Assembly (NCBI GenBank): GCA_963662715.1
Contig: OY759724.1
Span: 2,940,001 to 2,972,000 of the forward strand
DNA from: Candidatus Omnitrophota bacterium
Lineage (GTDB): Bacteria; Omnitrophota; Gorgyraeia; Zapsychrales; JANLHA01
DNA: 32,000 nt
Reading direction: 5' to 3'
The first letter of the stretch is position 1; every line of letters starts with the position of its first letter. The notes beneath the pieces were generated by a model. The model did not search any database. It was not told the origin of the DNA and saw only the letters and a list, made by a program, of their open reading frames with translations. The position numbers were made by a program, and so were the translations under genes. Below, one piece after another: positions 1 to 18,226 of this stretch.

Positions 1-417
1 ATCAAGATATCCATAGGGGTCTCTTTGTTGGGTTTGCTGGCGTCTTACGGGTTCTGCCTTGACCTCAACGCCTTCTCGCTGGGAGAAGAGGAAGCCATTC
101 ACCTGGGCGTTGACACGGAAAGGACAAAACGTGCCCTGTTTATTATCGCGGCCCTGCTGATCGGATACAGTGTTTCTGTGACAGGCATTATCGGATTTGT
201 CGGCCTGGTGATCCCTCATCTGATGCGCATGCTCGTTGGACGGGATCACCGCATTCTCTTGATATGCTCATTTCTCGGCGGGGCGGCTTTCTTGATTATC
301 TGTGACACATTGGCCCGGACAATTATTTCCCCCATGGAACTTCCTGTCGGAGTTATCACCGGGCTGCTGGGAGGCTCGCTTTTTGTCTATACCTTAGCCA
401 AAAAAGGAACATTGTAA
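1..417 (+). CDS. FecCD/BtuC-family ABC transporter permease, C-terminal fragment (5' end cut by the window)
   Basis: Frame 1 is open from base 1. The translation ...IIGFVGLVIPHLMRMLVGRDHR...ELPVGVITGLLGGSLFVY matches the conserved C-terminal core of iron-siderophore/B12-type permeases. The stop codon lies just upstream of the ATPase gene. Confidence 0.85.
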   Translation: MKISIGVSLLGLLASYGFCLDLNAFSLGEEEAIHLGVDTERTKRALFIIAALLIGYSVSVTGIIGFVGLVIPHLMRMLVGRDHRILLICSFLGGAAFLIICDTLARTIISPMELPVGVITGLLGGSLFVYTLAKKGTL

Positions 418-420
418 ATC

Positions 421-1269
421 ATGCTCGAAATAAAAAACCTGACCTGCGGGTACACAACAAAGTCTATTCTTCATGATATTGAGTTCAAGGCGGAGGACGG
501 CGAATTTTACGGTATTATTGGACCCAATGGTTCCGGGAAAACCACCTTTCTGCGGACCATCAGCCGCATACTCAAGCCGAGGAAGGGAGCGGTCCTTTTA
601 GATCAGCAGGATATCAGAAAAATGGGGCTGAAGGAACTCGCCCGTAAAATGGCTTTTGTGCCGCAGAGCCTGGAAATCAGCCGCCTGACCGTTGAAGAAT
701 TCGTCCTGCTGGGGCGGATCCCGTATTTTTCCGGACTGCAGTTTATCGAATCAAAGGAGGATTATCTTAAAGCCCGTCAATCCATGGAATTGACGGACGT
801 CCTGCACCTTAAAGATGTTTTTATTGACCAGATCAGCGGGGGCGAAAGACAGCTTGCCCTGATCGCCCGGGCTTTAACCCAGGAGCCGCGGCTGCTTTTG
901 CTTGATGAACCCACGTCGCATTTAGACATCAGCCATCAGGTTAAAATTCTGGATTTATTGAGGAGACTTAACAAAGAGCTGAAAATAACGGTGATGATGG
1001 TGCTGCATGATTTGAACCTGGCCAGTGAATACTGTCATAAACTGGTGCTGATCAATCAGGGAAGAATTCATCGTATAGGATCCCCGCAGGAGGTGTTGGA
1101 CTACCGGATCATTGAAGACGTCTATAAAACAATTGTCGTTGTGGAAAACAACCCTGTTTCGAACAAACCGTATGTATTAATCGTTTCGGAAGAGGCGAGG
1201 GATGCCGCCTGTTTAACAGCTAAGGCCCGGCGTAAAAACGGGGCTTCAAGAGGAAAGGACGCATTATGA
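421..1269 (+). CDS. ABC transporter ATP-binding protein, FepC/BtuD-like (siderophore/corrinoid importer class)
   Basis: Walker A GPNGSGKTT, signature ISGGERQ, Walker B LLLLDEPTSHLD and H-loop VLHDLN are present. The gene is tightly linked to the permease upstream and overlaps the next gene at ATGA. Confidence 0.9.
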   Translation: MLEIKNLTCGYTTKSILHDIEFKAEDGEFYGIIGPNGSGKTTFLRTISRILKPRKGAVLLDQQDIRKMGLKELARKMAFVPQSLEISRLTVEEFVLLGRIPYFSGLQFIESKEDYLKARQSMELTDVLHLKDVFIDQISGGERQLALIARALTQEPRLLLLDEPTSHLDISHQVKILDLLRRLNKELKITVMMVLHDLNLASEYCHKLVLINQGRIHRIGSPQEVLDYRIIEDVYKTIVVVENNPVSNKPYVLIVSEEARDAACLTAKARRKNGASRGKDAL

Positions 1270-1796: not shown

Positions 1797-1854
1797 AACG
1801 GCACAAGGAAGGAAACAGCCCTCAAAATAAATCATTATTTGAAACATGTTATTG

Positions 1855-2035
1855 TCCAGGTGCTCCTCCCGAAGGAGAGAATAGGGAAGCCAGTGCAAAT
1901 CTGGCACGGACCCGCCGCTGTAATGGGGAACGAAAGCCGTATCAAGTCACTGTTCATCGCCGTATAAATAGGCATGAAGATGAACGGGAAGGCGCGGCCA
2001 GTAGGATGATCCTTGAGTCAGAAGACCTGCCTGTA
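1855..2035 (+). promoter_or_regulatory. Cobalamin riboswitch, full-length (class-I/AdoCbl-like) aptamer
   Basis: Conserved core AATAGGGAAGCCAGTGCAAATCTGGCACGGACCCGCCGCTGTAA. Peripheral extension elements GTCACTG and GGGAAGGC. B12 box GAGTCAGAAGACCTGCC. P1 candidates are CAGG(T) at 1857-1861 and ACCTG at 2024-2028. Confidence 0.85.
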
Positions 2036-2110
2036 CAATTTGTTTGCGTCTTTGCCGGGAAACGTTATGTCAGGAAGGCGCAAAGTCTTGTCGCTTAGGA
2101 TAAAACAGGG

Positions 2111-2195: not shown

Positions 2196-3101
2196 ATGAA
2201 ATTCATACGCATACAATATCTCCCTTTGATGATTGTTTTATCACTCGTTGTGTTGATGAAAGTTGAACCGAGCGGTGCTGCTGTGGTTCAGCAGGATTTT
2301 CTCTGGCTTGAATACCAGGACGCGATAAAAGAAAAAGACGGGAGCATGACATTGCCGCTGCAGATTCATTACGGGACCTTCCCGCAGGAAGAAAAAAAGT
2401 TCCCGGACTTCTTGAGCTTGAGGGCTTTTTATGTTTCCCCCGTCAAGGAGGAGACGGCTCAGGGATTGATTTATGAATCCGCGATTACTCCAAAGACAGA
2501 AGGTTTATTCCTGAATATCAATTCTTTGAAATCCCGTCCTTTCACCGTTTTTGTCGAAGCAAAAATTTCACAAAACGGGACGCCGCATACTTACCTGGCC
2601 AAAACATCTTTTGTGCTTTTCGGTTCTGTTTTAAAGGAAGAGGTTCCCCGTTATTCTCCTGTCTCCGGCTATCCGGTGGACCGTTCCCTGGAGATAACAA
2701 CGCGTCCGCCATTTCATTATTGGCCGCAAACCGGACAGCCGGTGGACATTATTCCTTTATGGCATGATCAGCGTTTGCAGCAGGACACCGTTCATATATT
2801 TGACGAGCATCAGGCTTTAGAAAGCGCAACGACCTCCCGGGAAGGTGTCTTGACATATTTGCCCCCGGATGATGCGGCTTTGAATGCCAGGGGGGATACG
2901 GCTTTTAAACAAACAGTGTTCGTCGTCCAAAAAGACGGGGACGGGGGAAGATACATATCGACATGCACCATGCTCTTACACCGGAACAGATTCAACAAAC
3001 ATAATACGGTTATGGGAATTTTTATTTTCGGGGCCGCCATGCTCGGTTGTTTGGGCGTGGTGCTCGGCAGAAGAAGGAGGTTCCGTTTTGAGTCTTTTTA
3101 A
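2196..3101 (+). CDS. Secreted protein with a C-terminal TM anchor; weak resemblance to DUF4198/COG5266-type periplasmic metal-uptake proteins
   Basis: ATG at 2196 sits inside the TTG-started ORF listed at 2184. N-terminal signal peptide (LMIVLSLVVLMKVEPSGAA). C-terminal TM plus basic tail (VMGIFIFGAAMLGCLGVVLGRRRRFRF). The pattern DFLWLEY...LQIHYGTFP...SLEITTRPP...GQPVDIIPLWHDQ recalls DUF4198, but the family call is by eye only. Confidence 0.6.
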   Translation: MKFIRIQYLPLMIVLSLVVLMKVEPSGAAVVQQDFLWLEYQDAIKEKDGSMTLPLQIHYGTFPQEEKKFPDFLSLRAFYVSPVKEETAQGLIYESAITPKTEGLFLNINSLKSRPFTVFVEAKISQNGTPHTYLAKTSFVLFGSVLKEEVPRYSPVSGYPVDRSLEITTRPPFHYWPQTGQPVDIIPLWHDQRLQQDTVHIFDEHQALESATTSREGVLTYLPPDDAALNARGDTAFKQTVFVVQKDGDGGRYISTCTMLLHRNRFNKHNTVMGIFIFGAAMLGCLGVVLGRRRRFRFESF

Positions 3102-4032
3102 TCTGCGGTCCTGGATTCAGGGCATCAGTTTTCTGATATTAACTTATGGCGGACGTTTCGGGCTGCGTTTAGGCCATTTTTTGCCGTGTTTTGCCTGCCC
3201 TTATGTGGGGAGTTGTTCTGGGCATTGTTATTTGATGGCTTTGCAGGGATCCATTTGGGGAGCCCAGATCCCCTGGGCCCATCTTATCAGCGTCAGGGGC
3301 CTCAGGGCCTTGGGCATGTTTGCCGGATTTTCTTTTTTAGTGATCATTTTCTCTAAAACCTGGTGCGGCTGGATTTGTCCTTTCGGCACTCTGCAGGATT
3401 GGATCTCCTGGGTAAGGAGAAAACTCGCTGTCCGGGAAGCGGAATTTTCCGAAAGTTTCCGGAACGCCTTGAAACCGGTGAAGTACATTTTACTGGTTTT
3501 GCTCATTATCATTCCTATGTTCATTGCCAATGCCGGCCTGCATCCTGACTTTAAACTGCCTTTTTGTCAACTATGCCCGGCCAAGCCTCTCATGCCTGTA
3601 TTTGAAGGAAATTTTCAACATTTTGCCATTGATACCACCAATACCATCACCTTTGTGATGAGTGCATTATCCATGCTGCTTACCGCCGGATTTTTGGTCG
3701 GCATGATGTTTAAAGACCGATTTTTCTGTATATTCTGTCCTCTTTTGGCGCTCATAAGCCTGTTTGACAGATTTGGACTTCTGCAGTTAAAGAAAAATAT
3801 TCGGTCCTGTACGGGCTGCGCCCATTGTGAACAAATATGTCCGATGGATATCAGCGATGTCCATCGGGAAGAACAGAAAGAGCCGGTCATCTCCCAGGAT
3901 TGTACGCTTTGTTTGAAATGCGCTGAACACTGCCCGGAGGATAAAACGCTCTCTTTGGAATTCATGAAAAAACCCCTTTTTTCTTCTTCCAGGAAATATG
4001 TGGCCCGGCATTCGATAAAAACAAAAAGGTGA
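3088..4032 (+). CDS. Polytopic membrane 4Fe-4S protein, NapH/MauN/YccM-like
   Basis: TTG start at 3088 lies 7 nt after SD AAGGAGG (3074-3080). Several TM segments carry CxxCP/CxxxCP motifs (CFACPY, CGWICPFG, CQLCPA, CIFCPL). The C-terminus has two ferredoxin motifs, CTGCAHCEQICP and CTLCLKCAEHCP. The longer ORF from 2884 overlaps the previous gene and is not used. Confidence 0.75.
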   Translation: MSLFNLRSWIQGISFLILTYGGRFGLRLGHFLPCFACPYVGSCSGHCYLMALQGSIWGAQIPWAHLISVRGLRALGMFAGFSFLVIIFSKTWCGWICPFGTLQDWISWVRRKLAVREAEFSESFRNALKPVKYILLVLLIIIPMFIANAGLHPDFKLPFCQLCPAKPLMPVFEGNFQHFAIDTTNTITFVMSALSMLLTAGFLVGMMFKDRFFCIFCPLLALISLFDRFGLLQLKKNIRSCTGCAHCEQICPMDISDVHREEQKEPVISQDCTLCLKCAEHCPEDKTLSLEFMKKPLFSSSRKYVARHSIKTKR

Positions 4033-4037
4033 TATTT

Positions 4038-5270
4038 ATGGACTTGAAGAATAGTCAACAAAGCAAGATCAGAATGAAACAGGAAAAGGTTAAAAAAGAA
4101 CTGCAGGATGAATATGCCTGCCAGATGGATTCGCTTAAACAGCGGGATGACTTTGAACCCGGGTTCGAATACTTTCTTGATATCCTCACTTTGCTTATTT
4201 TTCCAGCCAAACTGAAAGACAGAATGCAGGCTCCCTTAGCCGGGCTTTACTGCATTCAGGCTCCCTTGGAACTGTTTCATGCGTTGGGGTTTCATCCCGT
4301 TAGGTTCTGTCACGGGTCATTGGCTCTCCAGAAGCTTTCCGCCGCTTCTCTCCCGGCTTTGGCTTGCCCGATGATCAAATCCTGTTTAGGGTCGTTTCTT
4401 TCGGAGGAATCTTTGGAAAAAATTTGTGACGTCCTGATCGTGCCTACAACATGCGACTGGAATACCAAAATACCTGAACTGATAGGGGCAAATCTCCGGA
4501 GTCCCTATGTGATGGAACTTCCCCATCTGAAAGACAGTGCACGGGGGAAAAAACGCTGGCAGGAGGAGATTCATGAATTAAAGAATTATCTGCAGAAAAT
4601 ATCCGGAAGGAAACTTGAACGGCAGCGTCTCTGGACATCCGTGCAGACCTACATGCGGGCCTGGGAGGTTTTAGGCCGGATTCTTGAACTGCGGAGAAAC
4701 CAGCAGCTCTCAGGGACCTGGAGCCTCATTTTGACCAATGCTTTTCTTGTCGACAAGGTGGAAAACTGGACGGAGAATGTTCAGCATTTTCTAAAAAAAC
4801 ATCAGCCGCGACCCAACAGTGATCCCGCTGTATTCCTGGCCGGATCTCCGGTCTTTTTCCCATATTTGAAAATCACGGAATTAATCGAGGAAGCCGGTAT
4901 GTTCATCAAGGCCGATGAGCTCTGCACATCGGAACGGATTCTGGCGAGTTCCGTTCCGGACGATCTTTCTGAATACGGCCTGTTGAAGGCCCTTGCGGAC
5001 AAATGTCACCGGGGCTGCAGCTGTCCCACATATGCGGACAATCACCGGCGAATCAACACGGTTATGCATGCCATGCGTAAGAGTAATATCAAAGGGGTTG
5101 TTTATCATGTTCTCAAAGGATGCCATCCTTACGACATAGAAAGTTTTGTTTTTGAAAAAACCGTCAAAGAAAACGGGTTCCATTTTCTGAAAATAGAAAC
5201 CGGCTATTCCAAAGAAGACAGACAAAATATTTTAGCCCGCTTGGAGGCTTTTAAGGACACAATCGGTTGA
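4038..5270 (+). CDS. BcrC/BadD/HgdB-superfamily protein (2-hydroxyacyl-CoA dehydratase D-component / double-cubane-cluster-protein-like)
   Basis: About 410 aa. Family-typical segments are VPTTCDWNTK, DELCTSER, CHRGCSCPTYAD and VVYHVLKGCHPYD...FLKIETGYSKED. ATG at 4038 follows AAAAAGG, whereas the ORF track starts at GTG 4029. The gene lies directly upstream of a cognate-type activase. Confidence 0.75.
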   Translation: MDLKNSQQSKIRMKQEKVKKELQDEYACQMDSLKQRDDFEPGFEYFLDILTLLIFPAKLKDRMQAPLAGLYCIQAPLELFHALGFHPVRFCHGSLALQKLSAASLPALACPMIKSCLGSFLSEESLEKICDVLIVPTTCDWNTKIPELIGANLRSPYVMELPHLKDSARGKKRWQEEIHELKNYLQKISGRKLERQRLWTSVQTYMRAWEVLGRILELRRNQQLSGTWSLILTNAFLVDKVENWTENVQHFLKKHQPRPNSDPAVFLAGSPVFFPYLKITELIEEAGMFIKADELCTSERILASSVPDDLSEYGLLKALADKCHRGCSCPTYADNHRRINTVMHAMRKSNIKGVVYHVLKGCHPYDIESFVFEKTVKENGFHFLKIETGYSKEDRQNILARLEAFKDTIG

Positions 5271-5342
5271 ATTTGAGTCTTGTGTCGGGAATTGCGGCAG
5301 GCCCGACGTTCAGCAAATCCAGATTAAAAGGAGAGGAGAAGA

Positions 5343-6152
5343 ATGGTTATTGTCGGCATAGATATCGGGACGGCGGCTATCAAAGTCGCCTTTACGGACG
5401 GACAGCAATATCTTTGGACCAAGGCCCGGGATACTGTTCCGCATGCCGAAGAGGTCTGTCAAGCCCTGCTGGAGGAAGGCCTGAAAGCCCTGACCATGAC
5501 CGCCGATGATGTGGATGGGATTGCCACAACGGGTTATGGCAAGCGGCTATTCTCCCGCTCCTGTAAATTTGTCAATGAGATATCCGCCAACGCCATGGGG
5601 GCTTTTATCTTGAGTCAGGGGACGGCAGGAACTGTCGTTAACATCGGCGGGCAGGATGCCAAGGTGATTAAGATTTCTTCTCAGGGGAAAGCGGATGATT
5701 TTAAGATGAATACCAAGTGTGCGGCCGGAACAGGCCGTTTTTTTGAGATGGCCGCAAGGATACTAAACGCATCTCTTGACGATTTTGAACGTCTAAGCCG
5801 CTTAAGCCGGAGTCCTGTTTCGATCAACAGCACCTGTGTCGTTTTTGCCGAGAGTGAAATTGTCTCTTTGTTGTCCACCGGGCGGGACCGGAATGATATC
5901 ATCGCCGGCCTGCATAAATCGGTAGCCAGGAAAATATCGGAGATGTCAGAATCCATCCCGTTGGAAGATGTTGTTTATCTGGACGGCGGGCCGGCAAAAA
6001 ACAAAGGATTGTTGTCGGCCATTCAGTCTGAATTGATGAGAGAAGTCGCTGTGTTGTCGCACCCTCAATTTACGGCGGCCTTTGGTGCGGCCAGGATTCT
6101 TTTCAATGAAAGAAAAATATCAGGGAATAATCATTTCACGCTCAAAACCTGA
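5343..6152 (+). CDS. BcrAD/BadFG/HgdC-family ATPase (ATP-dependent electron-transfer activator of dehydratase/DCCP-type enzymes)
   Basis: ASKHA N-terminus VGIDIGTAAIKVA, then NIGGQDAKVI, CAAGTGRFFEMAARIL, VVFAESEIVSL and LDGGPAKNKGL. Strong SD AGGAGAGGAG precedes the ATG. Confidence 0.85.
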   Translation: MVIVGIDIGTAAIKVAFTDGQQYLWTKARDTVPHAEEVCQALLEEGLKALTMTADDVDGIATTGYGKRLFSRSCKFVNEISANAMGAFILSQGTAGTVVNIGGQDAKVIKISSQGKADDFKMNTKCAAGTGRFFEMAARILNASLDDFERLSRLSRSPVSINSTCVVFAESEIVSLLSTGRDRNDIIAGLHKSVARKISEMSESIPLEDVVYLDGGPAKNKGLLSAIQSELMREVAVLSHPQFTAAFGAARILFNERKISGNNHFTLKT

Positions 6153-6238
6153 AGGAAAGAGAAAGGAGGGTCACCTTGTAACGGGAACAATTTTTTGCAG
6201 TCTACATGAAATCGTTAGAAACTATGTTAACCCACCGG

Positions 6239-6324
6239 ATAGACAGAGGAAGTCCTGGTGTGATCCCAGGCGCTGCCCCGCAACGGTAATCTCGCATGAC
6301 GGATGAGCCCGGTCTATTGTCTAT
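6239..6324 (+). promoter_or_regulatory. Compact cobalamin riboswitch lacking the peripheral extension (class-II / AdoCbl-variant-like)
   Basis: P1 is ATAGACA (6239-6245) paired with TGTCTAT (6318-6324). Core GAGGAAGTCCTGGTGTGATCCCAGGCGCTGCCCCGCAACGGTAA parallels the E. coli btuB core GGGAAUCCAGUGCGAAUCUGGAGCUGACGCGCAGCGGUAA. A B12-box-like GAGCCCGG is present. There is no GCCACUG/GGGAAGGC extension. The element ends 28 nt before the receptor start codon. Confidence 0.55.
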
Positions 6325-6352
6325 TTTGGAAGTACACTCGAGGGAGAGGAAA

Positions 6353-8230
6353 ATGGTAAAGAATGTTTGTCTCATTACAGGATTCTTGGGTCTTATGGCA
6401 TTTCAACAAACAGCTGCGGGAGCGGAAATCCATATCGACGAAAAATATCATCTCGGGGAAGTGATCGTCTCCGCAACTAAAACAGAGACATACCAAAGCG
6501 AGGTAGGAAGCTCAACGACCGTCATTACGGCCGAAGAGCTGGAAAATTCGGGAAAAACCCAGGTCCTGGATGTTCTGCGGGATGCCCCGGGCGTGGCTGT
6601 CGTGCAGTATGGCAGTTATGGCGGAGGCACCTCTGTGTATTTAAGAGGCTCCAAGCCCGGACACACTCTGGTCATGATTGACGGCATTGAGGTGAATGAC
6701 CCGATGGTCAGCGACCGATCGTTTGATTTCGCTCATTTGCTGGTCGATAATATCGAACGCATCGAAATTGTCCGGGGGCCGCAATCAACGCTTTATGGTT
6801 CAGATGCTATGGGCGGCGTTATTAATATCATCACGAAAAAAGGTTCCGGCGACATGACGTGGGATGCTTTCTTTGAAGGCGGGACTTTCAAATCTTTTAA
6901 GGAAAAACTCGGTCTCAGCGGGGAGAAAGACAAGCTGGGGTATTCGCTGTCGGTCCTGCGGTTTGACAGTGACGGAGAATCGAAAGCCGCTGACGAATGG
7001 GAGGATGACGGTTACCGCAACACCACGCTTTCCTCGCGGTTAAGTTATCAGCTTCTGGAAAACACGAATATCGATCTGGTCTTCCGTTATATCGATGCGA
7101 AATATGATTATGATGACGGCGCCAACCAGGACGATCCTAATAAGATCGGCTGGTCGGAAAACATGATGACAAAGTTCGCTTTTGATCACGCCATAAATTC
7201 CATCTGGGATCATACGTTCACATTCTCCTATTCCCGGATAAAACGGACGTATCGGGACGAGCCGGATTCTACGGACCTTTATGACAACACCCACAACTGG
7301 TATAAAGGTAACAGGAAAAAATTTGAATGGCAGCATAACCTTTATCCGGTGGACTGGTCGATTTCAACCCTGGGAGTGGAATATGAAGAAGAACGCGGCC
7401 TGGCGGACGGCCGGTCCTCGTGGAACAGGATCGACAGAAAAACAGCGGAAACAGTCAGTTTTTATCTGCAGGATCAGCTGACTTTTTTCGAAGACTTGCA
7501 CGTTACCCCGGGTTTCCGGATCGACGACCATGACCGGTTCGGCACAGAAGCGACCTATAAAATTTCTTCGGCCTATCTTTTGCCGGAGAGCGGCACCCGG
7601 TTTAAGGCGAACTGGGGCACAGGTTTTAAGGCTCCGTCACTGTACCAATTGTATTCAGATTATGGCGATCCGGCCCTGAATCCGGATGAGAGCCGGAGTT
7701 ATGATGTCGGATTTGAACAGGAGCTTTTCGGACAGAAAACATCCTTCGGATTAACGTATTTTTATAACAATTTTAAAAACATGGTGGATTGGGATTCCAG
7801 TTTGAACAAGTATAAAAATATCGATAATGCCATAACCAAAGGTCTGGAATTTGAAGCGTCTTACCGCCCTCTAGAATCTTTGACTCTGGGGACGAACTAT
7901 ACCTATACAAAGACAAAAGACAAAGATACAGACAAGGAGCTGCCCAGACGGGTTCAGAATCAGGTCGGTTTTCATATCAACTGGACCTTGCTTGAAAAAA
8001 CGAACCTGAACTTGACGGCCACTTACATGGGACATCGATGGGATGATGCCGCGAATACGAACAAGTTGAAACCTTATACCCGCGTTGACTTCCGGGGGTC
8101 TTACGATTTGACGGATCATGTCCAGCTTTTCACCAGGATAGAAAATCTGTTTGATAAAAAAGCGGAACAAATCAGCGGTTACGGCACCCCCGGGACATCT
8201 TATTACGCCGGGATTAAAGCCACATTCTAA
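6353..8230 (+). CDS. btuB: TonB-dependent outer-membrane receptor, BtuB-like (corrinoid uptake inferred from the riboswitch)
   Basis: ATG at 6353 follows GAGGGAGAGGA, so the ORF-track start at 6296 would lie inside the riboswitch. Signal peptide, then TonB-box-like GEVIVSAT. Plug motifs are VLRDAPGV, YLRGSKPGHTLVMIDGIEVNDP, IEIVRGPQSTLYGSDAMGGVINIITK. A barrel follows, ending in YYAGIKATF with a terminal Phe. Confidence 0.9.
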   Translation: MVKNVCLITGFLGLMAFQQTAAGAEIHIDEKYHLGEVIVSATKTETYQSEVGSSTTVITAEELENSGKTQVLDVLRDAPGVAVVQYGSYGGGTSVYLRGSKPGHTLVMIDGIEVNDPMVSDRSFDFAHLLVDNIERIEIVRGPQSTLYGSDAMGGVINIITKKGSGDMTWDAFFEGGTFKSFKEKLGLSGEKDKLGYSLSVLRFDSDGESKAADEWEDDGYRNTTLSSRLSYQLLENTNIDLVFRYIDAKYDYDDGANQDDPNKIGWSENMMTKFAFDHAINSIWDHTFTFSYSRIKRTYRDEPDSTDLYDNTHNWYKGNRKKFEWQHNLYPVDWSISTLGVEYEEERGLADGRSSWNRIDRKTAETVSFYLQDQLTFFEDLHVTPGFRIDDHDRFGTEATYKISSAYLLPESGTRFKANWGTGFKAPSLYQLYSDYGDPALNPDESRSYDVGFEQELFGQKTSFGLTYFYNNFKNMVDWDSSLNKYKNIDNAITKGLEFEASYRPLESLTLGTNYTYTKTKDKDTDKELPRRVQNQVGFHINWTLLEKTNLNLTATYMGHRWDDAANTNKLKPYTRVDFRGSYDLTDHVQLFTRIENLFDKKAEQISGYGTPGTSYYAGIKATF

Positions 8231-8234
8231 CAGG

Positions 8235-8281
8235 GTTCGTCGCAGGGGACGGTAAAAAATTTTGCCGTCCCCCTGACGAAC
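8235..8281 (+). other. Long imperfect GC-rich hairpin between the receptor and exbB
   Basis: GTTCGTCGCAGGGGACGGTAAAA pairs with TTTTGCCGTCCCCCTGACGAAC. There is a 7-bp outer stem, a small internal loop and bulge, and an 8-bp GGGGACGG/CCGTCCCC inner stem. No U-tract follows. Confidence 0.4.
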
Positions 8282-8297
8282 AGAAAGGGCAAAAAGC

Positions 8298-8900
8298 ATG
8301 CTGGAATTTCTTATGAAAGGCGGACCGTTGATGTGGCCGATCATCCTGTGTTCGGTCATTTCCGGTTCAATCATTTTAGAACGGCTGTATAAGTTTTACC
8401 GTTCGAGGATAAAAATCCCGAACATATCGGCGCGAGTCAATAATCTGCTGAAAGAAAAAAAACCTCAGGAGGCGTTAAGGCTTTGTGAAAACACCGATGA
8501 TCCCCTTGCGCACATTTTAGCCATCGGGATACGCGTCCGGAAAAGAAATCTGGAAGAACGGGAAAAAATCATTTCCAGGGCGGGGTCCAAACTTGTCCGG
8601 GATATGGACCAGCACCTGCGCGGGTTAGCCATTATCGGAAACATTACCCCCTTAATGGGATTATTGGGCACGGTCACCGGGATGATCAAAGCCTTTATGA
8701 AGATACAGGAGTTGGAGGGAAGAGTCGATGCCTCTGTTTTGGCCGGCGGGATATGGGAAGCTTTAATCACAACGGCCGCCGGTTTAGCGGTGGCGATTCC
8801 GACACTTGTCGCTTATCATTATTTTGAAGGGAAAGTGGATAATATCAGTGCCAGGATGAAAGAAGCGATTGCCGAACTTCTAGAAATGGAACATGTTTAA
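8298..8900 (+). CDS. exbB: MotA/TolQ/ExbB proton-channel protein
   Basis: GGPLMWPIILCSVISGSIILER, then GNITPLMGLLGTVTGMIKAF and WEALITTAAGLAVAIPTLVAYHYF are typical ExbB/TolQ segments. Confidence 0.9.
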   Translation: MLEFLMKGGPLMWPIILCSVISGSIILERLYKFYRSRIKIPNISARVNNLLKEKKPQEALRLCENTDDPLAHILAIGIRVRKRNLEEREKIISRAGSKLVRDMDQHLRGLAIIGNITPLMGLLGTVTGMIKAFMKIQELEGRVDASVLAGGIWEALITTAAGLAVAIPTLVAYHYFEGKVDNISARMKEAIAELLEMEHV

Positions 8901-8915
8901 AAAAGGATTCATATC

Positions 8916-9332
8916 ATGGAATTCGAAGGGCGAAAAAAAGTCGTCACGCAGTTAAATATTGCGCCCCTGATAGATATTGTTTTTCTGCTTTTGATATTTT
9001 TCATGCTTTCAGCGCATTTCATTTCTCAGCCGGGGATAGAAATCACCCTGCCGTCCGCCGCCGCTTCGCAATACCAGGAGGAGGAAGAGATCCTTGTCTT
9101 CATAGTGTCCGGAAGAGAAATATATCTCGGGGAAGACTTGGTAACCTTGGAAGATTTCTCGGAGAAGTTGAAGATGAAACTCAAACATGCCAGAGAAAAA
9201 AGCGTGACCGTAAAAGCGGACGAGGGAGTGGACCTGGGCTTGGTCGTGAAGATCCTGGACTGGGCTAAGCAGGCGGAGGCCACCTCCTTGATTATTTCAA
9301 CACAAACGGAAGAAGAAGCTCATGCCGAATGA
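8916..9332 (+). CDS. exbD: ExbD/TolR biopolymer transport protein
   Basis: The N-terminal TM NIAPLIDIVFLLLIFFM and a periplasmic domain with VTVKADEGVDLGLVVKILD are present. The gene lies 15 nt after exbB. Confidence 0.85.
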   Translation: MEFEGRKKVVTQLNIAPLIDIVFLLLIFFMLSAHFISQPGIEITLPSAAASQYQEEEEILVFIVSGREIYLGEDLVTLEDFSEKLKMKLKHAREKSVTVKADEGVDLGLVVKILDWAKQAEATSLIISTQTEEEAHAE

Positions 9333-10179
9333 TAGAGTCATGCGGATGGCTTTCCTGGTGTCTTTGCTGGGACACTGTGTTTTGTTCAGTGCTCCCGGGA
9401 TGAAAATCCCGGAAAACCGGGATGATAAAAAAAATATCAAAGTAAGCCTAAAGATTGAAGATCCGGTTATTTTGCCGAAGATCAGGGAAATCGGGATGGA
9501 AAAGAAAATCCCTGAACTGCCCGAACTACCCGAGGAATCCGTCCCGGAAGAACCCGATCTCAAGGAGCCGGATGAGCCGCCAGAGGAGCAGCCCGAGGAG
9601 AAGGAACTGGAAGACGTTTCCCCTGAGCTCCCGCCGGCGCAAGAAGTTTTTAAGGCACCTCCCGAAACCCCAACGCCGGAACCGCCGGAGCAGGCAGTCC
9701 CGGAGCCGTCCCCCCAGCCCCGAACGGAGAAAATCGCCGCCCCAACAACACCTCCGGTCCAGGATATTGAAAAGCCGCCTCCTTTGCCGATGCCGACACC
9801 TCAGCCGGTGCCTGCTGTTAAAGAGTTGTCTGAAAACGTAGTCAAAGATAAAAATTTTGCAGAAAAGGTCAAGGTCCCTCATCCGGATACGGAAAAAATG
9901 CTTCGTTACCAGGACGCGGTTAAACAACGTATCCAGTCAGCAAGACGATATCCCCGCTGGGCCAGAAGACACGGGGTGGAAGGGGCTGTCGGGGTGAGTT
10001 TCCTTGTTTTATCTGACGGGTCCAGTAAAAATATTCGCCTGACGCGTTCTTCCGGATATAAAATCCTTGATGAAGAAGCCCTGGCGACAATCAAAAGAGC
10101 CGGGCCTTTCCCCCCCATACCTGAGAAAAATATTCCGCGGACACGAATACATGTCAGTATCGTTTTTAACCTGCAATAA
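9322..10179 (+). CDS. tonB: Energy transducer TonB
   Basis: N-terminal TM, then a long Pro/Glu-rich spacer (PELPEESVPEEPDLKEPDEPPEEQPEE...PTPEPPEQAVPEPSPQP). C-terminal TonB domain RYPRWARRHGVEGAVGVSFLV...SGYKILDEEALATIKRAGPFPPIP. The start overlaps exbD by 11 nt. Confidence 0.85.
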   Translation: MPNDRVMRMAFLVSLLGHCVLFSAPGMKIPENRDDKKNIKVSLKIEDPVILPKIREIGMEKKIPELPELPEESVPEEPDLKEPDEPPEEQPEEKELEDVSPELPPAQEVFKAPPETPTPEPPEQAVPEPSPQPRTEKIAAPTTPPVQDIEKPPPLPMPTPQPVPAVKELSENVVKDKNFAEKVKVPHPDTEKMLRYQDAVKQRIQSARRYPRWARRHGVEGAVGVSFLVLSDGSSKNIRLTRSSGYKILDEEALATIKRAGPFPPIPEKNIPRTRIHVSIVFNLQ

Positions 10180-10356
10180 ATCATGTGGCCTCTGAGAACA
10201 TTATGAACATAAATTATCCATGTGTTCAATATTATGATTAATATTTTGCCTTGGCATGGATAAAGTAGTATCCTGATTATTATTGCAGGAATTTCGAGAT
10301 GCCTGAGACAGAATGCGCAGTATCGGCGTCAGGCAAACATTAAAGAGGGAGGATCT

Positions 10357-11154
10357 ATGGCGTTCCAAAAACGGAAAACACTCATAATATCTCTGGTTAT
10401 TGTTTTTTGTTTCGGTTCAACGACATGTTGTCATGCGGTGGAGCTTTTTGAAGGGGTATGGCGCGCGCTGGGGGTTGATGTTAAAGAATTGGAAGGCGCT
10501 GTTCTCGGTCTGGGGGTTTTATACACGCCATCCGTATACAAAGACGCCGACGATAATGTCTGGCCTATTCCGCTTATTATCGGGAAATATAAAAGATTCT
10601 ATTCCGACGGCTCCAGTTTCGGATATGTTTTGAATGATAACAACACCCTGTTTTTCTCCCTGGTCGGACAACCCCGCTTTAACGGTTATAAATCTTCGGA
10701 CAGCGCGGCCTTATCCGGGATGGAAGACCGGGACTGGTCTCTGGACGGCGGTTTGAAAATGAGCTGGAATAATGAGTGGTTTTTGCTGAACATCACAGGG
10801 GTGACCGATCTTTTGAGCCGGCACAACGGCCATGAATTAAAAGCCGTTGTTTCCAAGGAACTGTTTAAAGGAGGGTTGACGCCTAAGCTGGGCATAAAAT
10901 GGTTAAGTGATAATGTCGTCGAGTATTATTACGGTGTCTCCGGAACGGAACATCGCGCTGAACGGCCCGCCTATGAAGGAGGCTCGAGCATAAATGTCAT
11001 TGCCGGCTTTACTTTAGCGTTGCCTCTAGGTGAAGACTGGGCTGCCATTACGGATTTTGAATATAGATATTTAGGCTCGGAAATTGAAGACTCTCCTATC
11101 GTGGACACCCATGATGACTTTACGGCTATTTTCGGGATAGTTTATCGATATTAG
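10357..11154 (+). CDS. MipA/OmpV-family outer-membrane protein
   Basis: Signal peptide, beta-rich alternating pattern, YKDADDNVWPIPLIIGKYKRFYSDGSSFGY, and a C-terminal aromatic residue (VYRY). SD AGAGGGAGGA precedes the start. The family call is by eye. Confidence 0.6.
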   Translation: MAFQKRKTLIISLVIVFCFGSTTCCHAVELFEGVWRALGVDVKELEGAVLGLGVLYTPSVYKDADDNVWPIPLIIGKYKRFYSDGSSFGYVLNDNNTLFFSLVGQPRFNGYKSSDSAALSGMEDRDWSLDGGLKMSWNNEWFLLNITGVTDLLSRHNGHELKAVVSKELFKGGLTPKLGIKWLSDNVVEYYYGVSGTEHRAERPAYEGGSSINVIAGFTLALPLGEDWAAITDFEYRYLGSEIEDSPIVDTHDDFTAIFGIVYRY

Positions 11155-11278
11155 CTGTGCCCCCGGATAATATCTTCTGTCCCGGCAATAAGTTAAGGGG
11201 CCCCGTCCTCAATCTGCTTTACCGTATCAACAAATTATAGTAATATATTAAGAATTTCATGTCGGGAGAGGATATTTT

Positions 11279-11662
11279 ATGAAAAAATCAAAGGGTGAAA
11301 TTGAATCCCAAATCAGCGAAGCTATCATACGTTTTGAAAAAGAATATATGGGGCGGGGCCCCAAGGAAACCAAAACCTATATTATCGAAGATATGATTTT
11401 TGTCCGGCTGAAAGGCGTTTTAACCCCGGCAGAAGAACAACTGTCCAAAACCAACGAAGGTTCTGATTTAATCAAAAAGACACGCGTTAATCTGCTGGAA
11501 GGGGCCTGGATGCTGCTGGAGAGTCTTGTTTTTGATATCACAGGGTGTAAAATACAAAGCCTGCATTCGGATATCAGCACGAAAACAGGAGAACGCATCA
11601 TCATTTTCACTCTGGACAGAGATTTTGAGGAACGTGTTAAGAACTCCGGGAAAATAATTTGA
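11279..11662 (+). CDS. DUF2294 domain protein
   Basis: GEIESQISEAIIRFEKEYMGRGPKETKTYIIEDMIFVRLKGVLTPAEEQL matches the characteristic DUF2294 N-terminal block. SD GGGAGAGGA precedes the start. Confidence 0.7.
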   Translation: MKKSKGEIESQISEAIIRFEKEYMGRGPKETKTYIIEDMIFVRLKGVLTPAEEQLSKTNEGSDLIKKTRVNLLEGAWMLLESLVFDITGCKIQSLHSDISTKTGERIIIFTLDRDFEERVKNSGKII

Positions 11663-11757
11663 CTTTGCGTTTTTTTGTGATATTTTATTAGACAATACAA
11701 ATTATTTGGAAGACTAAGGTAAGGACCTCATTGTTGAACCGGGGTTGTTGCAAAGTA

Positions 11758-11815
11758 AGCCAACATCAGAAATCCTTGCTACTTAATTATGGCGGGAGAG
11801 GATGTTGGCTTTTTA
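11758..11815 (+). other. Hairpin plus T-run in the pckG leader (possible terminator of the upstream gene or an attenuator)
   Basis: AGCCAACATC (11758-11767) pairs perfectly with GATGTTGGCT (11801-11810) and is followed by TTTTT. The 33-nt loop is atypically large for an intrinsic terminator. Confidence 0.3.
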
Positions 11816-11848
11816 CGTGTTTGTTATTAATGATAAGGAGGATGGCGA

Positions 11849-16255: not shown

Positions 16256-17233
16256 TTGAATATTAACGACGGAGTTATAAAACCCTGTTTTTTCCTGATC
16301 CTTTCTTTATCTCTTTTTCTGGGCCAGCCTGCTCCGGCCCAAAGCGACCAAGACCTGGAATATCTTAAATCTCTTTCCCGGCAAACCACCTTTTTTGCCG
16401 AACAGGAATACTCGCTGATTTTGGATAAAGGCCGGGATTGCTGGCCGGATGCGGATACCCTTAAAGTCCGCATGGTTTTTGCAAATAAAACTGTTTTTGA
16501 AAAAAATTTCCCGGCGAAGTTTCCTCTTAAAGTTGATTTTCAATATCCCCAGCTCAAACCGGGGGTTATCGCTGATCCGCTTCTTATCATTACGGCTTTT
16601 TCGCAGGAAGAGATGCTGAAAGGGATTTATCAAAAACAGCTGTTTTTTTTCCCGCAAAAGCAGAGCCCTGCTCCGGGACTTTATACGGAGGAGATCGGGA
16701 TTTTCGATCAAACCGGAGAGGGACTTTTAAAGAACAGTCTGCAGGAAATGGGAATCCCTTTTACGGAAATTTATGAGTTTTCTGATTTCAACGGGCCGTG
16801 GATTGTTGGCTCAGGACTCGATTTTTCAAACAATTATTCGCTCTTTGAAGAGATGCTGGAAGCTTTTTCCAAAGGAACGTCCCTGCTGATTTTAGCGCCC
16901 CTGGAAGGCGAATTCCCCTGGCCGGATATGAAAAAAATAACCCGGGTCATTTTCTCGGACGAGAGTATTGTGGCCGATTATGATAAACACCTGAACCTGC
17001 TGACGGACGGGATGAACGGAACAGAGGGGCATGTAACGTTTCAGGTTGGAAGCAACGGGGAAAGCAGTGTCATCAAATGCACCGGGGACCGCCAAGGATA
17101 CAACTGGCTGGAATTTCAGACCCCGGAATCCCGCATGATTTTTCTGGGATGGAATTTGCCGGCATACACCGGGAAGAACCCGACCATGTTCATGCTGTTG
17201 AATCGTATATTAACTCAAGAAGAAAAAAAATGA
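16256..17233 (+). CDS. Secreted hypothetical protein
   Basis: TTG start after GAGAGG. Signal peptide CFFLILSLSLFLGQPAPA|QS. I recognise no family. The stop lies 10 nt before the next gene. Confidence 0.55.
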   Translation: MNINDGVIKPCFFLILSLSLFLGQPAPAQSDQDLEYLKSLSRQTTFFAEQEYSLILDKGRDCWPDADTLKVRMVFANKTVFEKNFPAKFPLKVDFQYPQLKPGVIADPLLIITAFSQEEMLKGIYQKQLFFFPQKQSPAPGLYTEEIGIFDQTGEGLLKNSLQEMGIPFTEIYEFSDFNGPWIVGSGLDFSNNYSLFEEMLEAFSKGTSLLILAPLEGEFPWPDMKKITRVIFSDESIVADYDKHLNLLTDGMNGTEGHVTFQVGSNGESSVIKCTGDRQGYNWLEFQTPESRMIFLGWNLPAYTGKNPTMFMLLNRILTQEEKK

Positions 17234-17243
17234 GGAGGCTTAA

Positions 17244-18176: not shown

Positions 18177-18226
18177 GCCCGGATATGCTGGCTCACACCA
18201 GATAAGGCAGAGCGAACACAACTTTT

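What the first reader, a model, noticed from the sequence alone, without database searches (positions are those of the whole stretch)
2196..6152. B12-riboswitch-controlled module: periplasmic protein, NapH-like membrane ferredoxin, double-cubane/HgdB-like protein and ATP-dependent activase
Four tightly packed genes sit between two cobalamin riboswitches, next to cobO and a BtuB/ExbBD/TonB uptake set. They start at 2196, 3088, 4038 and 5343. HgdC-type ATPases inject very low-potential electrons into HgdB/BcrC/DCCP-type partners, and the physiological substrates of stand-alone double-cubane-type proteins are largely unknown. From the B12-repressed context I infer a corrinoid-related reductive step. 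Options include reduction to cob(I) ahead of CobO adenosylation, removal of an upper ligand from scavenged corrinoids, or electron delivery across the membrane through the NapH-like protein to the periplasmic protein. I know of no described role of this kind.
Basis: inference. Interest (0 to 1): 0.65.

Follow-up and report, generated by a model that had tools for sequence, protein, structure and literature searches.

The report
B12-controlled double-cubane membrane reductase module
Four genes (a periplasmic protein, a membrane iron-sulfur protein, a double-cubane iron-sulfur enzyme and its ATP-driven activator) form a fixed set that vitamin B12 switches off and that sits in B12 uptake and salvage loci across many phyla of double-membraned anaerobes, which gives a first physiological context for an enzyme class whose natural job is unknown.

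Summary
Four tightly packed genes (starts 2196, 3088, 4038, 5343) follow a strong cobalamin riboswitch (1841-2048, 120 bits) and its terminator. A weaker riboswitch-like element (6219-6355) precedes btuB-exbBD-tonB, and btuCD-cobO lie upstream.

- P3 is a double-cubane-cluster (DCCP-type) protein with all six cluster cysteines. It is not an acyl-CoA dehydratase.
- P4 is a canonical archerase ATPase.
- P2 is a NapH-like membrane polyferredoxin with six extra, near-invariant cysteines in its two predicted periplasmic loops.
- P1 is a membrane-anchored periplasmic two-beta-sandwich protein, a distant fold relative of DUF4198 without conserved metal ligands.

The order P1-P2-P3-P4 is kept in 74 of 75 informative loci, all from diderm lineages. 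A cobalamin riboswitch lies upstream, same strand, in 44 of 66 loci. Operon partners are BtuB-like receptors, BtuFCD, CobO, CbiZ, CbiB, CobQ, CobT/U/S and CobN. One metagenome contig fuses a BtuF-type binding protein to P1.

Best reading: an ATP-driven, very-low-potential, membrane-coupled reductase for scavenged corrinoids, most likely reducing cobalt ahead of adenosylation. The substrate and the direction of electron flow are inferred, not shown. I found no published description.

The parts
25..417 (+). BtuC-type permease, 3' fragment (cut by the window edge)
   Evidence: Pfam FecCD 4.9e-41
421..1269 (+). BtuD-type ABC ATPase
   Evidence: Pfam ABC_tran 5.2e-31; collinear BtuC-BtuD-CobO-P1 string in relative L001
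1266..1796 (+). CobO/CobA-type ATP:corrinoid adenosyltransferase
   Evidence: Pfam CobA_CobO_BtuR 3.9e-52; NCBIfam NF004637 147 bits and TIGR00708 136 bits, both below their cut-offs
1841..2048 (+). Cobalamin riboswitch aptamer (riboswitch 1)
   Evidence: RF00174, 120.1 bits, E 7.5e-30, full-length model match; own model R1 gives 133.8 bits
2107..2152 (+). Intrinsic terminator (expression platform of riboswitch 1)
   Evidence: 16-bp stem with 6 GC pairs and a 4-nt loop, then ATTGTTTTTT; lies between the aptamer and the P1 start
2196..3101 (+). P1: periplasmic protein of two beta-sandwich domains, with an N-terminal signal-like helix and a C-terminal membrane anchor
   Evidence: No Pfam or NCBIfam hit. 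AF2 model with alignment, pLDDT 84.7: helix 6-21, strands 35-141 and 165-262, helix 271-299. Top Foldseek PDB hit is 9GCB, a DUF4198 protein, E 1.9e-5. Small family of 185 representatives. Directly upstream of P2 in 74 of 75 loci.
3088..4032 (+). P2: NapH-like four-helix membrane polyferredoxin with extra Cys motifs in its predicted periplasmic loops
   Evidence: Fer4_5 and 2x[4Fe-4S] motifs; NapH models below cut-off. 18 Cys conserved at 93-100% over 76 sequences. Hydropathy and charge profile.
4038..5270 (+). P3: double-cubane-cluster (DCCP-type) protein of the HGD-D superfamily
   Evidence: HGD-D 1.9e-70; NF040772 235 bits. Profile against PDB: DCCP 6ENO/7YYL at E 2e-65. Cys pattern CX18CX18CX28CX156CX32CX32C, six ligand Cys 99-100% conserved.
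5343..6152 (+). P4: archerase-type ATP-dependent electron-transfer activase
   Evidence: BcrAD_BadFG 8.5e-49; TIGR00241 221 bits, above cut-off. PDB hits HadI 4EHT 1.9e-48, HgdC 1HUX, DCCP-R 7YYL_E. Cluster Cys126 and Cys165 100% conserved.
6219..6355 (+). Second, short cobalamin-riboswitch-like element that ends on the btuB ribosome-binding site and start codon
   Evidence: RF01482, 45.1 bits (gathering score 50), E 9e-6; sequence; RF00174 hit at the equivalent position in L002
6353..8230 (+). BtuB-like TonB-dependent receptor
   Evidence: Plug and TonB_dep_Rec_b-barrel; best NCBIfam model TIGR01779 TonB-B12, 328 bits, below its 600 cut-off
8298..8900 (+). ExbB
   Evidence: MotA_ExbB 2.1e-31
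8916..9332 (+). ExbD
   Evidence: ExbD 2.2e-28
9322..10179 (+). TonB
   Evidence: TonB_C 3.4e-18

Best explanation
P1-P4 is one dedicated machine of the cobalamin regulon. It is made when AdoCbl is scarce and serves corrinoid acquisition and salvage.

Steps taken from homologues:
- P4, a homodimeric archerase with a bridging [4Fe-4S] cluster, hydrolyses ATP.
- This drives an electron onto the [8Fe-9S] double-cubane cluster of P3, reaching a potential that dithionite cannot reach.

Inferred steps:
- P3 is wired through the cytoplasmic 2x[4Fe-4S] domain of P2 to Cys-ligated sites on both faces of the membrane.
- P2 sits in a complex with the membrane-anchored periplasmic protein P1.
- P1 works next to the BtuF/BtuCD import route.
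- The job is to reduce the cobalt of scavenged corrinoids: Co(III) to Co(II), and the hard Co(II) to Co(I) step.
- That strips foreign upper ligands and yields the cob(I) form that CobO- or PduO-type adenosyltransferases need. Adenosylation in turn is needed before CbiZ, CbiB and CobU/T/S can remodel the corrinoid.

Whether the corrinoid is reduced at the periplasmic face (electrons exported through P2) or at the cytoplasmic face (P2/P1 acting as anchor or electron inlet) cannot be decided from sequence.
For: Shown here:
- A riboswitch and terminator lie directly before P1.
- The four-gene order is kept in 74 of 75 loci.
- A riboswitch lies upstream in 44 of 66 loci, 25 of them directly before P1.
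- Same-strand neighbours are BtuB-like receptors (34 of 81 loci), BtuC/D and CobO. An operon-neighbour census gives CbiZ 10, BtuF-type binding proteins 7, CobQ-type 5-7, CbiB 4.
- L081 encodes a receptor, then a BtuF domain fused to P1, then P2-P3-P4, CobT, CobU, CobS and a PduO-type adenosyltransferase.
- L001 carries one gene string starting with a CobD/CbiB-family gene and running, after three unlabelled ORFs, through BtuC-BtuD-CobO-P1-P2-P3-P4.
- In Pelobacter propionicus the module follows the B12-dependent mutase and MeaB genes.
- P3 is closest to DCCP and keeps all six ligand Cys. P4 is a canonical archerase.
- P2 has 10 non-ferredoxin Cys conserved at 93-100%, six of them in loops that hydropathy and charge place outside.
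- P1 has a ~100% conserved Gly in its membrane helix, which fits helix packing with a partner (90% or more in the wider family).
- All confidently assigned hosts are diderm.

From the literature:
- The DCC cluster is reduced only by its ATPase, and the physiological role of DCCPs is unknown (PMC9351452, PMC7317905).

From my own knowledge, not tested here:
- Co(II)/Co(I) of base-off corrinoids lies near -500 to -600 mV.
- No dedicated cobalt reductase is known for anaerobic-pathway organisms.
- CbiZ acts on adenosylated substrates.
Against: - There is no direct evidence for the substrate. Nothing in P1-P4 resembles a known corrinoid-binding domain.
- P1 has no conserved His, Cys or Met in its ectodomain.
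- 22 of 66 loci have no detectable riboswitch.
- Some contexts point elsewhere: CobN-type chelatases directly upstream, a nitrogenase-like set in the same operon in Sporomusa, and B12-radical-SAM clusters.
- E. coli and Salmonella adenosylate B12 without such a system.
- A need for cob(I) or cob(II) in the periplasm has no precedent.
- Fe-S clusters on the periplasmic face of a protein without a Tat signal would be unusual.
Confidence: 0.5

Rival explanations
1. Metal handling rather than cobalt-in-corrin reduction. The module works with CobN-type chelatases, CbiK and TonB-dependent receptors to load or unload a metal. This could be cobalt insertion, dechelation of a scavenged metallotetrapyrrole, or reduction of a chelated metal. 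P1 would act as a DUF4198-like periplasmic metal-binding protein and P2 as a CcoG-like metal reductase.
For: - CobN-like genes (1260-1430 aa) lie directly upstream of P1 in L035, L046 and L079, and downstream of the module in L073; L066 has a matching 1365-aa ORF that was not scanned. CobN also lies nearby in L085 and L083.
- CbiK paralogues flank the module in Sporomusa.
- The only fold and Pfam link of P1 is to DUF4198, which binds Zn or Ni (PMC12663993).
- A few P2 homologues carry the CcoG-type Fer4_18 domain.
Against: - P1 lacks the His triad or any conserved metal ligand.
- CobN is present in only a minority of loci.
- The commonest partners act on complete corrinoids: CbiZ, CbiB, CobQ, CobT/U/S, CobO and BtuF.
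- Cobalt is already Co(II) in anoxic habitats (own knowledge).
Confidence: 0.15
2. Other reductive chemistry on the corrinoid, not plain Co(II) to Co(I) for adenosylation. Examples are reductive removal of an upper ligand (cyanide, sulfur or alkyl), release of the corrinoid from a high-affinity binder during uptake, or a step of lower-ligand or ring remodelling.
For: The same context evidence as for the best explanation applies. DCCP reduces small, hard substrates such as acetylene, hydrazine and azide (PMC9351452). CbiZ, CN_hydrolase and nitrogenase-like genes in the same operons hint at remodelling chemistry. The near-invariant periplasmic-loop Cys of P2 could touch cobalt directly, as Cys does in BtuM (own knowledge).
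Against: No specific evidence separates this from cobalt reduction; ligand loss follows reduction anyway. Early ring-synthesis genes (cbiC, D, E, F, G, H, J, L, T) are not among the operon partners.
Confidence: 0.2
3. A B12-independent bypass. As with metE or nrdDG, the riboswitch represses an enzyme system that replaces a B12-dependent reaction when B12 is short.
For: Riboswitch repression alone fits this reading. Rodionov et al. describe such logic for nrdDG (PMC545781).
Against: Bypass enzymes are not normally co-transcribed with btuB, btuFCD, cobO, cbiZ or cobT/U/S. The BtuF-P1 fusion and the obligatory periplasmic and membrane parts have no place in a metabolic bypass. The module also sits next to B12-dependent enzymes.
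Confidence: 0.05
4. An ordinary 2-hydroxyacyl-CoA dehydratase or benzoyl-CoA-reductase-type enzyme with its activator, lying next to B12 genes by chance.
For: Depositors annotate the homologues as '2-hydroxyacyl-CoA dehydratase'. Pfam HGD-D and BcrAD_BadFG domains are present.
Against: - There is a single HGD-D gene, with no alpha/beta pair.
- Scores to HadC, BcrC and BzdN are far below the score to the DCCP model.
- P3 carries six cluster Cys rather than three.
- No CoA-transferase or acyl-CoA neighbours appear.
- The context is conserved in 80 or more loci.
Confidence: 0.02

Closest known systems
DCCP / DCCP-R of Carboxydothermus hydrogenoformans (CHY_0487/0488; PDB 6ENO, 7YYL)
   Same: The P3 profile hits it best (E 2e-65). 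The six [8Fe-9S] ligand Cys are conserved. There is a single HGD-D gene with an adjacent archerase (P4 hits DCCP-R at 2.4e-37).
   Different: P3 scores below the NCBIfam double_cubane cut-off (235 against 350). Its Cys spacing is shorter (X156 against X166-170). The seventh Cys is kept in only 34% of members. An extra invariant His363 follows the last ligand. P3 always comes with a membrane protein and a periplasmic protein and sits under B12 control. The DCCP literature read here reports no membrane partner and states that the physiological function is unknown (PMC7317905, PMC9351452).
NapH (quinol dehydrogenase subunit of periplasmic nitrate reductase) and relatives NosH, NosR and RdhC/PceC
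   Same: Four-helix membrane core, CX3CP-type motifs after helices 2 and 4, and a C-terminal 2x[4Fe-4S] domain. Best NCBIfam hits are TIGR02163 and NF007013.
   Different: Scores are far below the cut-offs (85 against 213 bits). There are six extra near-invariant Cys in the two predicted periplasmic loops (PCxxCPxxxxCxGxC and CxxCP). No NapG, NapA or NosZ partner is present. The partners are a DCCP/archerase pair and P1.
CcoG/FixG cupric reductase (own knowledge: Fer4_5 membrane domain, two [4Fe-4S] clusters, periplasmic Ig-like domain)
   Same: P2 plus P1 together recreate the same layout: a NapH-like Fe-S membrane protein plus a membrane-anchored periplasmic beta-sandwich. Some P2 homologues carry Fer4_18. 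CcoG reduces a metal for a downstream transporter.
   Different: The layout is split into two genes. No FixG_C Pfam hit was found for P1. The system is driven by an ATP-dependent DCCP system. The context is B12, not cbb3 oxidase.
RACE-type reductive activators of corrinoid enzymes (RACo, RamA)
   Same: The proposed chemistry is the same: ATP-driven uphill electron transfer to make Co(I) from Co(II) corrinoid, using an ASKHA-fold ATPase (PMC7317905).
   Different: RACE proteins carry a [2Fe-2S] or ferredoxin domain on the ATPase, act on protein-bound corrinoid, and have no HGD-D partner or membrane parts. P4 is an archerase, a different ASKHA branch.
Known cobalamin reductases for adenosylation (FldA/Fpr with CobA, CobR, PduS): own knowledge
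   Same: They would deliver the same product, cob(I) for an adenosyltransferase. CobO is adjacent here.
   Different: They are flavin-based and soluble, with no ATP coupling and no sequence relation to P1-P4.
DUF4198 periplasmic metal-binding proteins (Zcp of N. gonorrhoeae; Ni-bound protein of I. sakaiensis, PDB 9GCB)
   Same: Best structural match of the P1 model (E 1.9e-5, TM 0.50 on the target). 5 of 117 P1-family members give weak DUF4198 hits. Both are periplasmic proteins of diderm bacteria.
   Different: The window protein has no Pfam hit. The three-His metal site (PMC12663993) has no counterpart among the conserved residues. P1 has a C-terminal membrane anchor.

Membership tests
Double-cubane cluster proteins (DCCP; NCBIfam NF040772) | HGD-D fold and closest similarity to solved DCCP rather than to HadBC, HgdAB or Bcr subunits | tested here: met
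   Pfam HGD-D 1.9e-70. Profile against PDB: DCCP E 2e-65, HadC 1.7e-32, BzdN 1.3e-24.
Double-cubane cluster proteins (DCCP; NCBIfam NF040772) | Six cysteines that ligate the [8Fe-9S] cluster (motif CX19CX18-19CX29CX166-170CX32-34CX32C, PMC7317905) | tested here: met
   C72, C110, C139, C296, C329 and C362 align with the DCCP Cys and are 99-100% conserved in 77 sequences. Spacing is CX18CX18CX28CX156CX32CX32C.
Double-cubane cluster proteins (DCCP; NCBIfam NF040772) | Seventh, non-ligating Cys next to the cluster (classes I and II) | tested here: inconclusive
   Present in the window protein (C91) but kept in only 34% of family members. In this respect it resembles 'class III' of PMC7317905, but it is not fused to its reductase.
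Double-cubane cluster proteins (DCCP; NCBIfam NF040772) | Score at or above the curated model cut-off | tested here: not met
   235 bits against a 350 cut-off. It is therefore a separate subfamily, not an equivalog of the curated set.
Double-cubane cluster proteins (DCCP; NCBIfam NF040772) | An actual [8Fe-9S] cluster and ATP-dependent reduction by the partner | not testable with these tools
   Needs anaerobic purification, EPR or Moessbauer spectroscopy, or a crystal structure.
Archerase activators (HgdC, HadI, BcrAD, DCCP-R; TIGR00241) | ASKHA ATPase domain above the curated cut-off, with two Cys per monomer for the bridging [4Fe-4S] cluster | tested here: met
   TIGR00241 221 bits against a 125 cut-off. 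HadI 1.9e-48 and HgdC 6.3e-43. C126 and C165 are 100% conserved.
2-hydroxyacyl-CoA dehydratases / class I benzoyl-CoA reductases | Two paralogous HGD-D subunits (alpha/beta, or BcrB/C) with three-Cys [4Fe-4S] sites, plus CoA-ester pathway neighbours | tested here: not met
   One HGD-D gene per module. The Cys pattern has six ligands. HadC, BcrC and BzdN models score 41-90 bits against cut-offs of 420-700. No CoA-pathway families appear in the neighbour census.
NapH/MauN family (TIGR02163, NF007013) | Score at or above the curated cut-off; partner NapG/NapAB | tested here: not met
   85 and 79 bits against cut-offs of 213 and 234. No nap genes occur in the window or loci.
NapH/MauN family (TIGR02163, NF007013) | Four-helix core with two CX3CP-type motifs and a C-terminal 2x[4Fe-4S] domain | tested here: met
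   C93-X3-C97-P and C214-X2-C217-P follow hydrophobic segments, and two CxxCxxCxxxCP motifs are present, all 100% conserved. The first helix falls below the hydropathy threshold, so the topology is inferred.
DUF4198 (PF10670) | Pfam match above the gathering score | tested here: not met
   No hit for the window protein. 5 of 117 relatives hit weakly, best E 2.7e-5; the one score seen, P0163, was 20.7 bits against a 34 cut-off.
DUF4198 (PF10670) | Metal site (three His in Zcp, PMC12663993) | tested here: not met
   No His or Cys is conserved in the ectodomain.
DUF4198 (PF10670) | Two-domain periplasmic beta-sandwich fold | tested here: met
   AF2 model with pLDDT 84.7. 9GCB is the top Foldseek hit at E 1.9e-5, but the TM-score is only 0.38-0.50.
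Cobalamin riboswitch (RF00174) | Full-length covariance-model match above the gathering score, in a 5' leader with an expression platform | tested here: met
   120.1 bits against 31.5. A terminator at 2107-2142 precedes the P1 start.
AdoCbl riboswitch (RF01482), second element | Match above the gathering score | tested here: not met
   45.1 bits against 50, E 9e-6. The position on the btuB RBS and an RF00174 hit at the same place in L002 argue that it is real.

The most novel reading that the evidence does not exclude
The module is a transmembrane electron pump for corrinoid uptake. ATP hydrolysis in the cytoplasm (P4) charges a double-cubane cluster (P3). Its very-low-potential electrons are passed through P2 across the inner membrane to Cys-ligated sites on the periplasmic face. 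There a corrinoid held by P1 or BtuF is reduced, and so stripped of its ligands or released from its carrier, before BtuCD imports it. This would be 'reductive B12 uptake', the corrinoid counterpart of reductive siderophore-iron uptake. It would also be the first physiological function for any double-cubane protein.
Probability: 0.25. Interest if true: 0.9.

Novelty: new variant of a known kind. Interest (0 to 1): 0.72.

Why it matters
- **A role for double-cubane proteins.** They were discovered in 2018 and reduce acetylene, hydrazine and azide in vitro, yet their physiological role is stated to be unknown (PMC9351452, PMC7317905). This subfamily comes with a clear biological address: the cobalamin regulon and corrinoid uptake and salvage loci of many anaerobic diderm phyla. 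That turns an open question into a bench experiment, namely ATP-dependent corrinoid reduction coupled to CobO.
- **A missing reductase.** The module may be the cobalt reductase that anaerobic corrinoid salvage has lacked.
- **A new coupling.** If electrons go outward, it would be a new way of coupling ATP to periplasmic redox chemistry.
- **Ecology.** The hosts include gut and rumen succinate users (Phascolarctobacterium, Succiniclasticum), acetogens (Sporomusa), syntrophs (Smithella), sulfate reducers and uncultured Omnitrophota. The module may therefore matter for corrinoid exchange in anaerobic communities.

Tried and rejected
- **Single-sequence AF2 of P1** gave a useless model (pLDDT 47). 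The alignment-based run replaced it, which left no AF2 job for P2 or a complex.
- **Sequence search of the P1 profile against PDB** found nothing.
- **P2 against PDB** found only soluble polyferredoxins, so there is no structural template for the membrane part.
- **Exact-protein look-up of P3** gave no contig, and the cluster look-up gave no name, so the source organism stays unidentified.
- **Literature.** Ten full-text searches combined double-cubane, HgdB, activase, NapH, nitrogenase-like, DUF4198 or YjiM with cobalamin, riboswitch, btuB or TonB. None found a description of this module. The 2004 delta-proteobacterial B12-regulon paper does not mention it. The library lacks most subscription journals, so absence is not proof.
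- **Ordinary acyl-CoA dehydratase**: rejected.
- **Cobalt-precorrin-6A (CbiJ-type) ring reduction**: considered and put aside, because the operon partners are late and salvage genes, not ring-synthesis genes.
- **Monoderm hosts.** The apparent ones (L031 'Robinsoniella', L014 and L016 'Dehalococcoidales') look mislabelled or mis-binned. Their P3 is 71% identical to Phascolarctobacterium and 90-92% identical to Smithella.
- **Model R1** missed the short second element in the window, so riboswitch counts are lower bounds for short variants.

Full report
**Observation**

The window carries, on the + strand, a BtuC fragment (25-417), BtuD (421-1269) and CobO (1266-1796). A cobalamin riboswitch follows, then four packed genes, a second riboswitch-like element, and btuB-exbB-exbD-tonB.

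Riboswitch 1 (1841-2048) is a full-length RF00174 match of 120 bits. A 16-bp terminator stem with a T-run at 2107-2152 follows it, 44 nt before the P1 start. This is a classical transcriptional OFF switch.

- 2196 is an ATG.
- 3088 is a TTG behind GAAGGAGG and overlaps the P1 stop.
- 4038 is an ATG, 5 nt after the P2 stop.
- 5343 is an ATG behind a strong Shine-Dalgarno.

The second element (6219-6355) reaches only 45.1 bits against RF01482 (gathering score 50, E 9e-6). It ends exactly on the btuB ribosome-binding site and ATG 6353. An Omnitrophota relative has an above-threshold RF00174 hit in the same spacer. I therefore accept it as probable.

**The four proteins**

- **P4** is a canonical archerase. 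TIGR00241 scores 221 bits, above its cut-off. HadI and HgdC are the best solved relatives. Both cluster Cys are invariant.
- **P3** belongs to the HGD-D superfamily, but its best model is the NCBIfam 'double_cubane' family (235 bits, below the 350 cut-off).
  - Its profile hits the solved double-cubane protein of C. hydrogenoformans at E 2e-65, against 1.7e-32 for HadC and 1.3e-24 for BzdN.
  - The six Cys that ligate the [8Fe-9S] cluster are 99-100% conserved over 77 sequences. The pattern is CX18CX18CX28CX156CX32CX32C, against the published CX19CX18-19CX29CX166-170CX32-34CX32C (PMC7317905).
  - The seventh, non-ligating Cys is kept in only a third of members.
  - P3 is thus a distinct DCCP subfamily, not a dehydratase.
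- **P2** is NapH-like: Fer4_5, two CxxCxxCxxxCP motifs, and NapH models far below their cut-offs.
  - Over 76 sequences all 18 Cys are 93-100% conserved.
  - Besides the two CX2-3CP motifs that follow hydrophobic segments 2 and 4, there are two more motifs: PCxxCPxxxxCxGxC between segments 1 and 2, and CxxCP between segments 3 and 4.
  - Hydropathy and the positive-inside rule place these two loops outside. So does homology to NapH, whose CX3CP motifs are cytoplasmic (my own knowledge).
  - The first helix is weakly hydrophobic, so this topology is an inference.
- **P1** hits no Pfam or NCBIfam model.
  - Its family is small: 185 representatives among 1.84 billion.
  - An alignment-based AF2 model (pLDDT 84.7) shows a signal-like helix, two beta-sandwich domains and a C-terminal membrane helix with an Arg-rich tail.
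  - The best PDB fold match is a Ni-bound DUF4198 protein (E 1.9e-5, TM 0.38-0.50). 5 of 117 relatives give weak DUF4198 hits.
  - The His metal site of DUF4198 (PMC12663993) has no counterpart. Across the family the conserved residues are a QTG motif, a Y-x-P-x-x-D-x-x-L motif, a juxtamembrane Arg and a ~100% conserved Gly in the membrane helix.

**Conservation of the module**

A profile scan of one genome per species returned 151 confirmed P3 relatives, of which the best 80 loci were kept.

- P2-P3-P4 are collinear in essentially all loci.
- With a P1 profile HMM, a P1-like ORF lies directly upstream of P2 in 74 of 75 loci that have enough upstream DNA.
- By depositor labels the hosts are Omnitrophota, Desulfobacterota, Spirochaetota, Planctomycetota, Victivallaceae, Negativicutes, Synergistota and Acidobacteriota. 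Elusimicrobiota and Chitinispirillia also appear among the protein hits.
- All of these are diderm. The two apparent exceptions look mislabelled.

**Link to B12**

I built a covariance model from ten RF00174 hits and searched all loci with it.

- Of 66 distinct loci with at least 2.5 kb up to the end of P1, 25 have a + strand cobalamin riboswitch immediately before P1.
- 19 have one further upstream in the same orientation, mostly in the order riboswitch, TonB-dependent receptor, P1.
- 22 have none detected.

Same-strand neighbours:
- BtuB-like receptors in 34 of 81 loci, BtuC/D and CobO.
- Among 135 further operon neighbours: CbiZ (10), BtuF-type binding proteins (7), CobQ-type amidotransferases (5-7), CbiB (4), B12-binding radical SAM enzymes (7-9), nitrogenase-like proteins (4), DUF2162 and DUF4019.
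- CobN-like chelatases directly upstream in several riboswitch-less loci.

Three contexts are especially telling:
- A metagenome contig encodes a receptor, then a BtuF domain fused to P1, then P2-P3-P4, CobT, CobU, CobS and a PduO-type adenosyltransferase.
- An Omnitrophota contig has one string that starts with a CobD/CbiB-family gene and runs, after three unlabelled ORFs, through BtuC-BtuD-CobO-P1-P4.
- In Pelobacter propionicus the module follows the methylmalonyl-CoA mutase and MeaB genes.

I put the probability that the module serves corrinoid acquisition, salvage or cofactor supply at about 0.85-0.9.

**Mechanism**

Shown for homologues: the archerase hydrolyses ATP to push an electron onto the double-cubane cluster, which dithionite or Ti(III) citrate cannot reduce (PMC9351452).

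Inferred here: P3 exchanges electrons with the cytoplasmic ferredoxin domain of P2. P2 pairs with P1 in the membrane. The target is the cobalt of scavenged corrinoids.

The argument is one of fit:
- The only step in late B12 metabolism that needs such a potential is Co(II) to Co(I) (my own knowledge).
- Its product is the substrate of the adjacent CobO.
- Adenosylation precedes the CbiZ, CbiB and CobU steps encoded alongside.

Four features suggest that part of the chemistry happens at or across the membrane, possibly on the periplasmic side:
- The periplasmic partner is invariably present.
- The outer-loop Cys of P2 are near-invariant.
- P1 occurs fused to a BtuF domain.
- The module is restricted to diderm hosts.

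I cannot decide the direction of electron flow. I give the cobalt-reduction reading 0.5. The rivals are:
- other reductive corrinoid chemistry, 0.2;
- metal handling with CobN/CbiK, 0.15;
- a B12-independent bypass, 0.05;
- an ordinary dehydratase, 0.02.

**Comparison and novelty**

The parts are known kinds: DCCP, archerase, a NapH-like polyferredoxin and a DUF4198-like fold. The fixed four-part assembly is not described in anything I could find. That covers the extra Cys motifs of P2, the membrane-anchored P1 and the B12 regulon membership (ten full-text searches). The search library lacks most subscription journals.

Functionally it most resembles RACE-type corrinoid activators in chemistry and CcoG in layout, and it is a member of neither family. 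I rate it a new variant of a known kind, with interest 0.72.

Noticed in passing
L083 (Sporomusa ovata DSM 2662, CP146301) 5338-12964: A single riboswitch-led operon carries a NifH-like gene and two NifD/K-like (Oxidored_nitro) genes directly before P1-P4. That puts two different ATP-driven low-potential reductase systems under one B12 riboswitch. Separate riboswitches precede cbiK-cbiZ and a TonB-dependent receptor downstream.
   Followed up: partly
L082 (Pelobacter propionicus DSM 2379, CP000482) 766-956: A 104-bit cobalamin riboswitch lies on the same strand about 950 nt upstream of the B12-dependent methylmalonyl-CoA mutase and MeaB genes that precede P1-P4. An OFF switch in front of a B12-dependent enzyme would be unusual, and it may regulate something else.
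   Followed up: no
L047 1-3833 and 3954-9997: Two paralogous modules lie in tandem. A divergent P1'-P2'-P3'-P4' set (P3' 29% and P2' 36% identical to the window proteins) is followed by riboswitch, receptor and P1-P4. P2' lacks two of the four loop-1 Cys. L036 also has a second P3/P4-like pair on the other strand.
   Followed up: partly
L035, L046, L066, L079, L073, L085: CobN-type chelatase genes (1240-1430 aa) lie directly upstream of or next to the module, in L046 and L066 with a DUF4019 gene between CobN and P1. No riboswitch was detected upstream in L035, L046, L066 or L079. The L066 ORF (1365 aa) was not itself scanned. The role of CobN in these anaerobes' uptake loci is unexplained.
   Followed up: partly
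L008 and L084 (Planctomycetia / 'Patescibacteria' label): Here the module sits inside a long same-strand string of B12-binding radical SAM enzymes, U32 peptidases, DUF2079 and DUF3108-like proteins, with no riboswitch and no transporter. This is a different B12-related context, one of cofactor users rather than uptake.
   Followed up: no
window 16256-22234: A 325-aa ORF with no Pfam hit (16256-17233) and a CsgG-like lipoprotein gene (17244-18176) are followed by a 1335-aa secreted or anchored protein (18227-22234) that was not scanned. They are unrelated to the finding.
   Followed up: no
window 23518-25621: An ORF (23518-24240, not scanned; it looks like a CPBP-type membrane protease by eye) overlaps the start of a radical SAM/SPASM maturase gene (24224-25621). 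This may be a small peptide-modification locus.
   Followed up: no
census (several loci): DUF2162 (6) and DUF2149 (3), together with MotA/ExbB-like genes, recur as same-strand neighbours of the module. This predicted transporter set of unknown substrate appears to travel with B12 loci.
   Followed up: no
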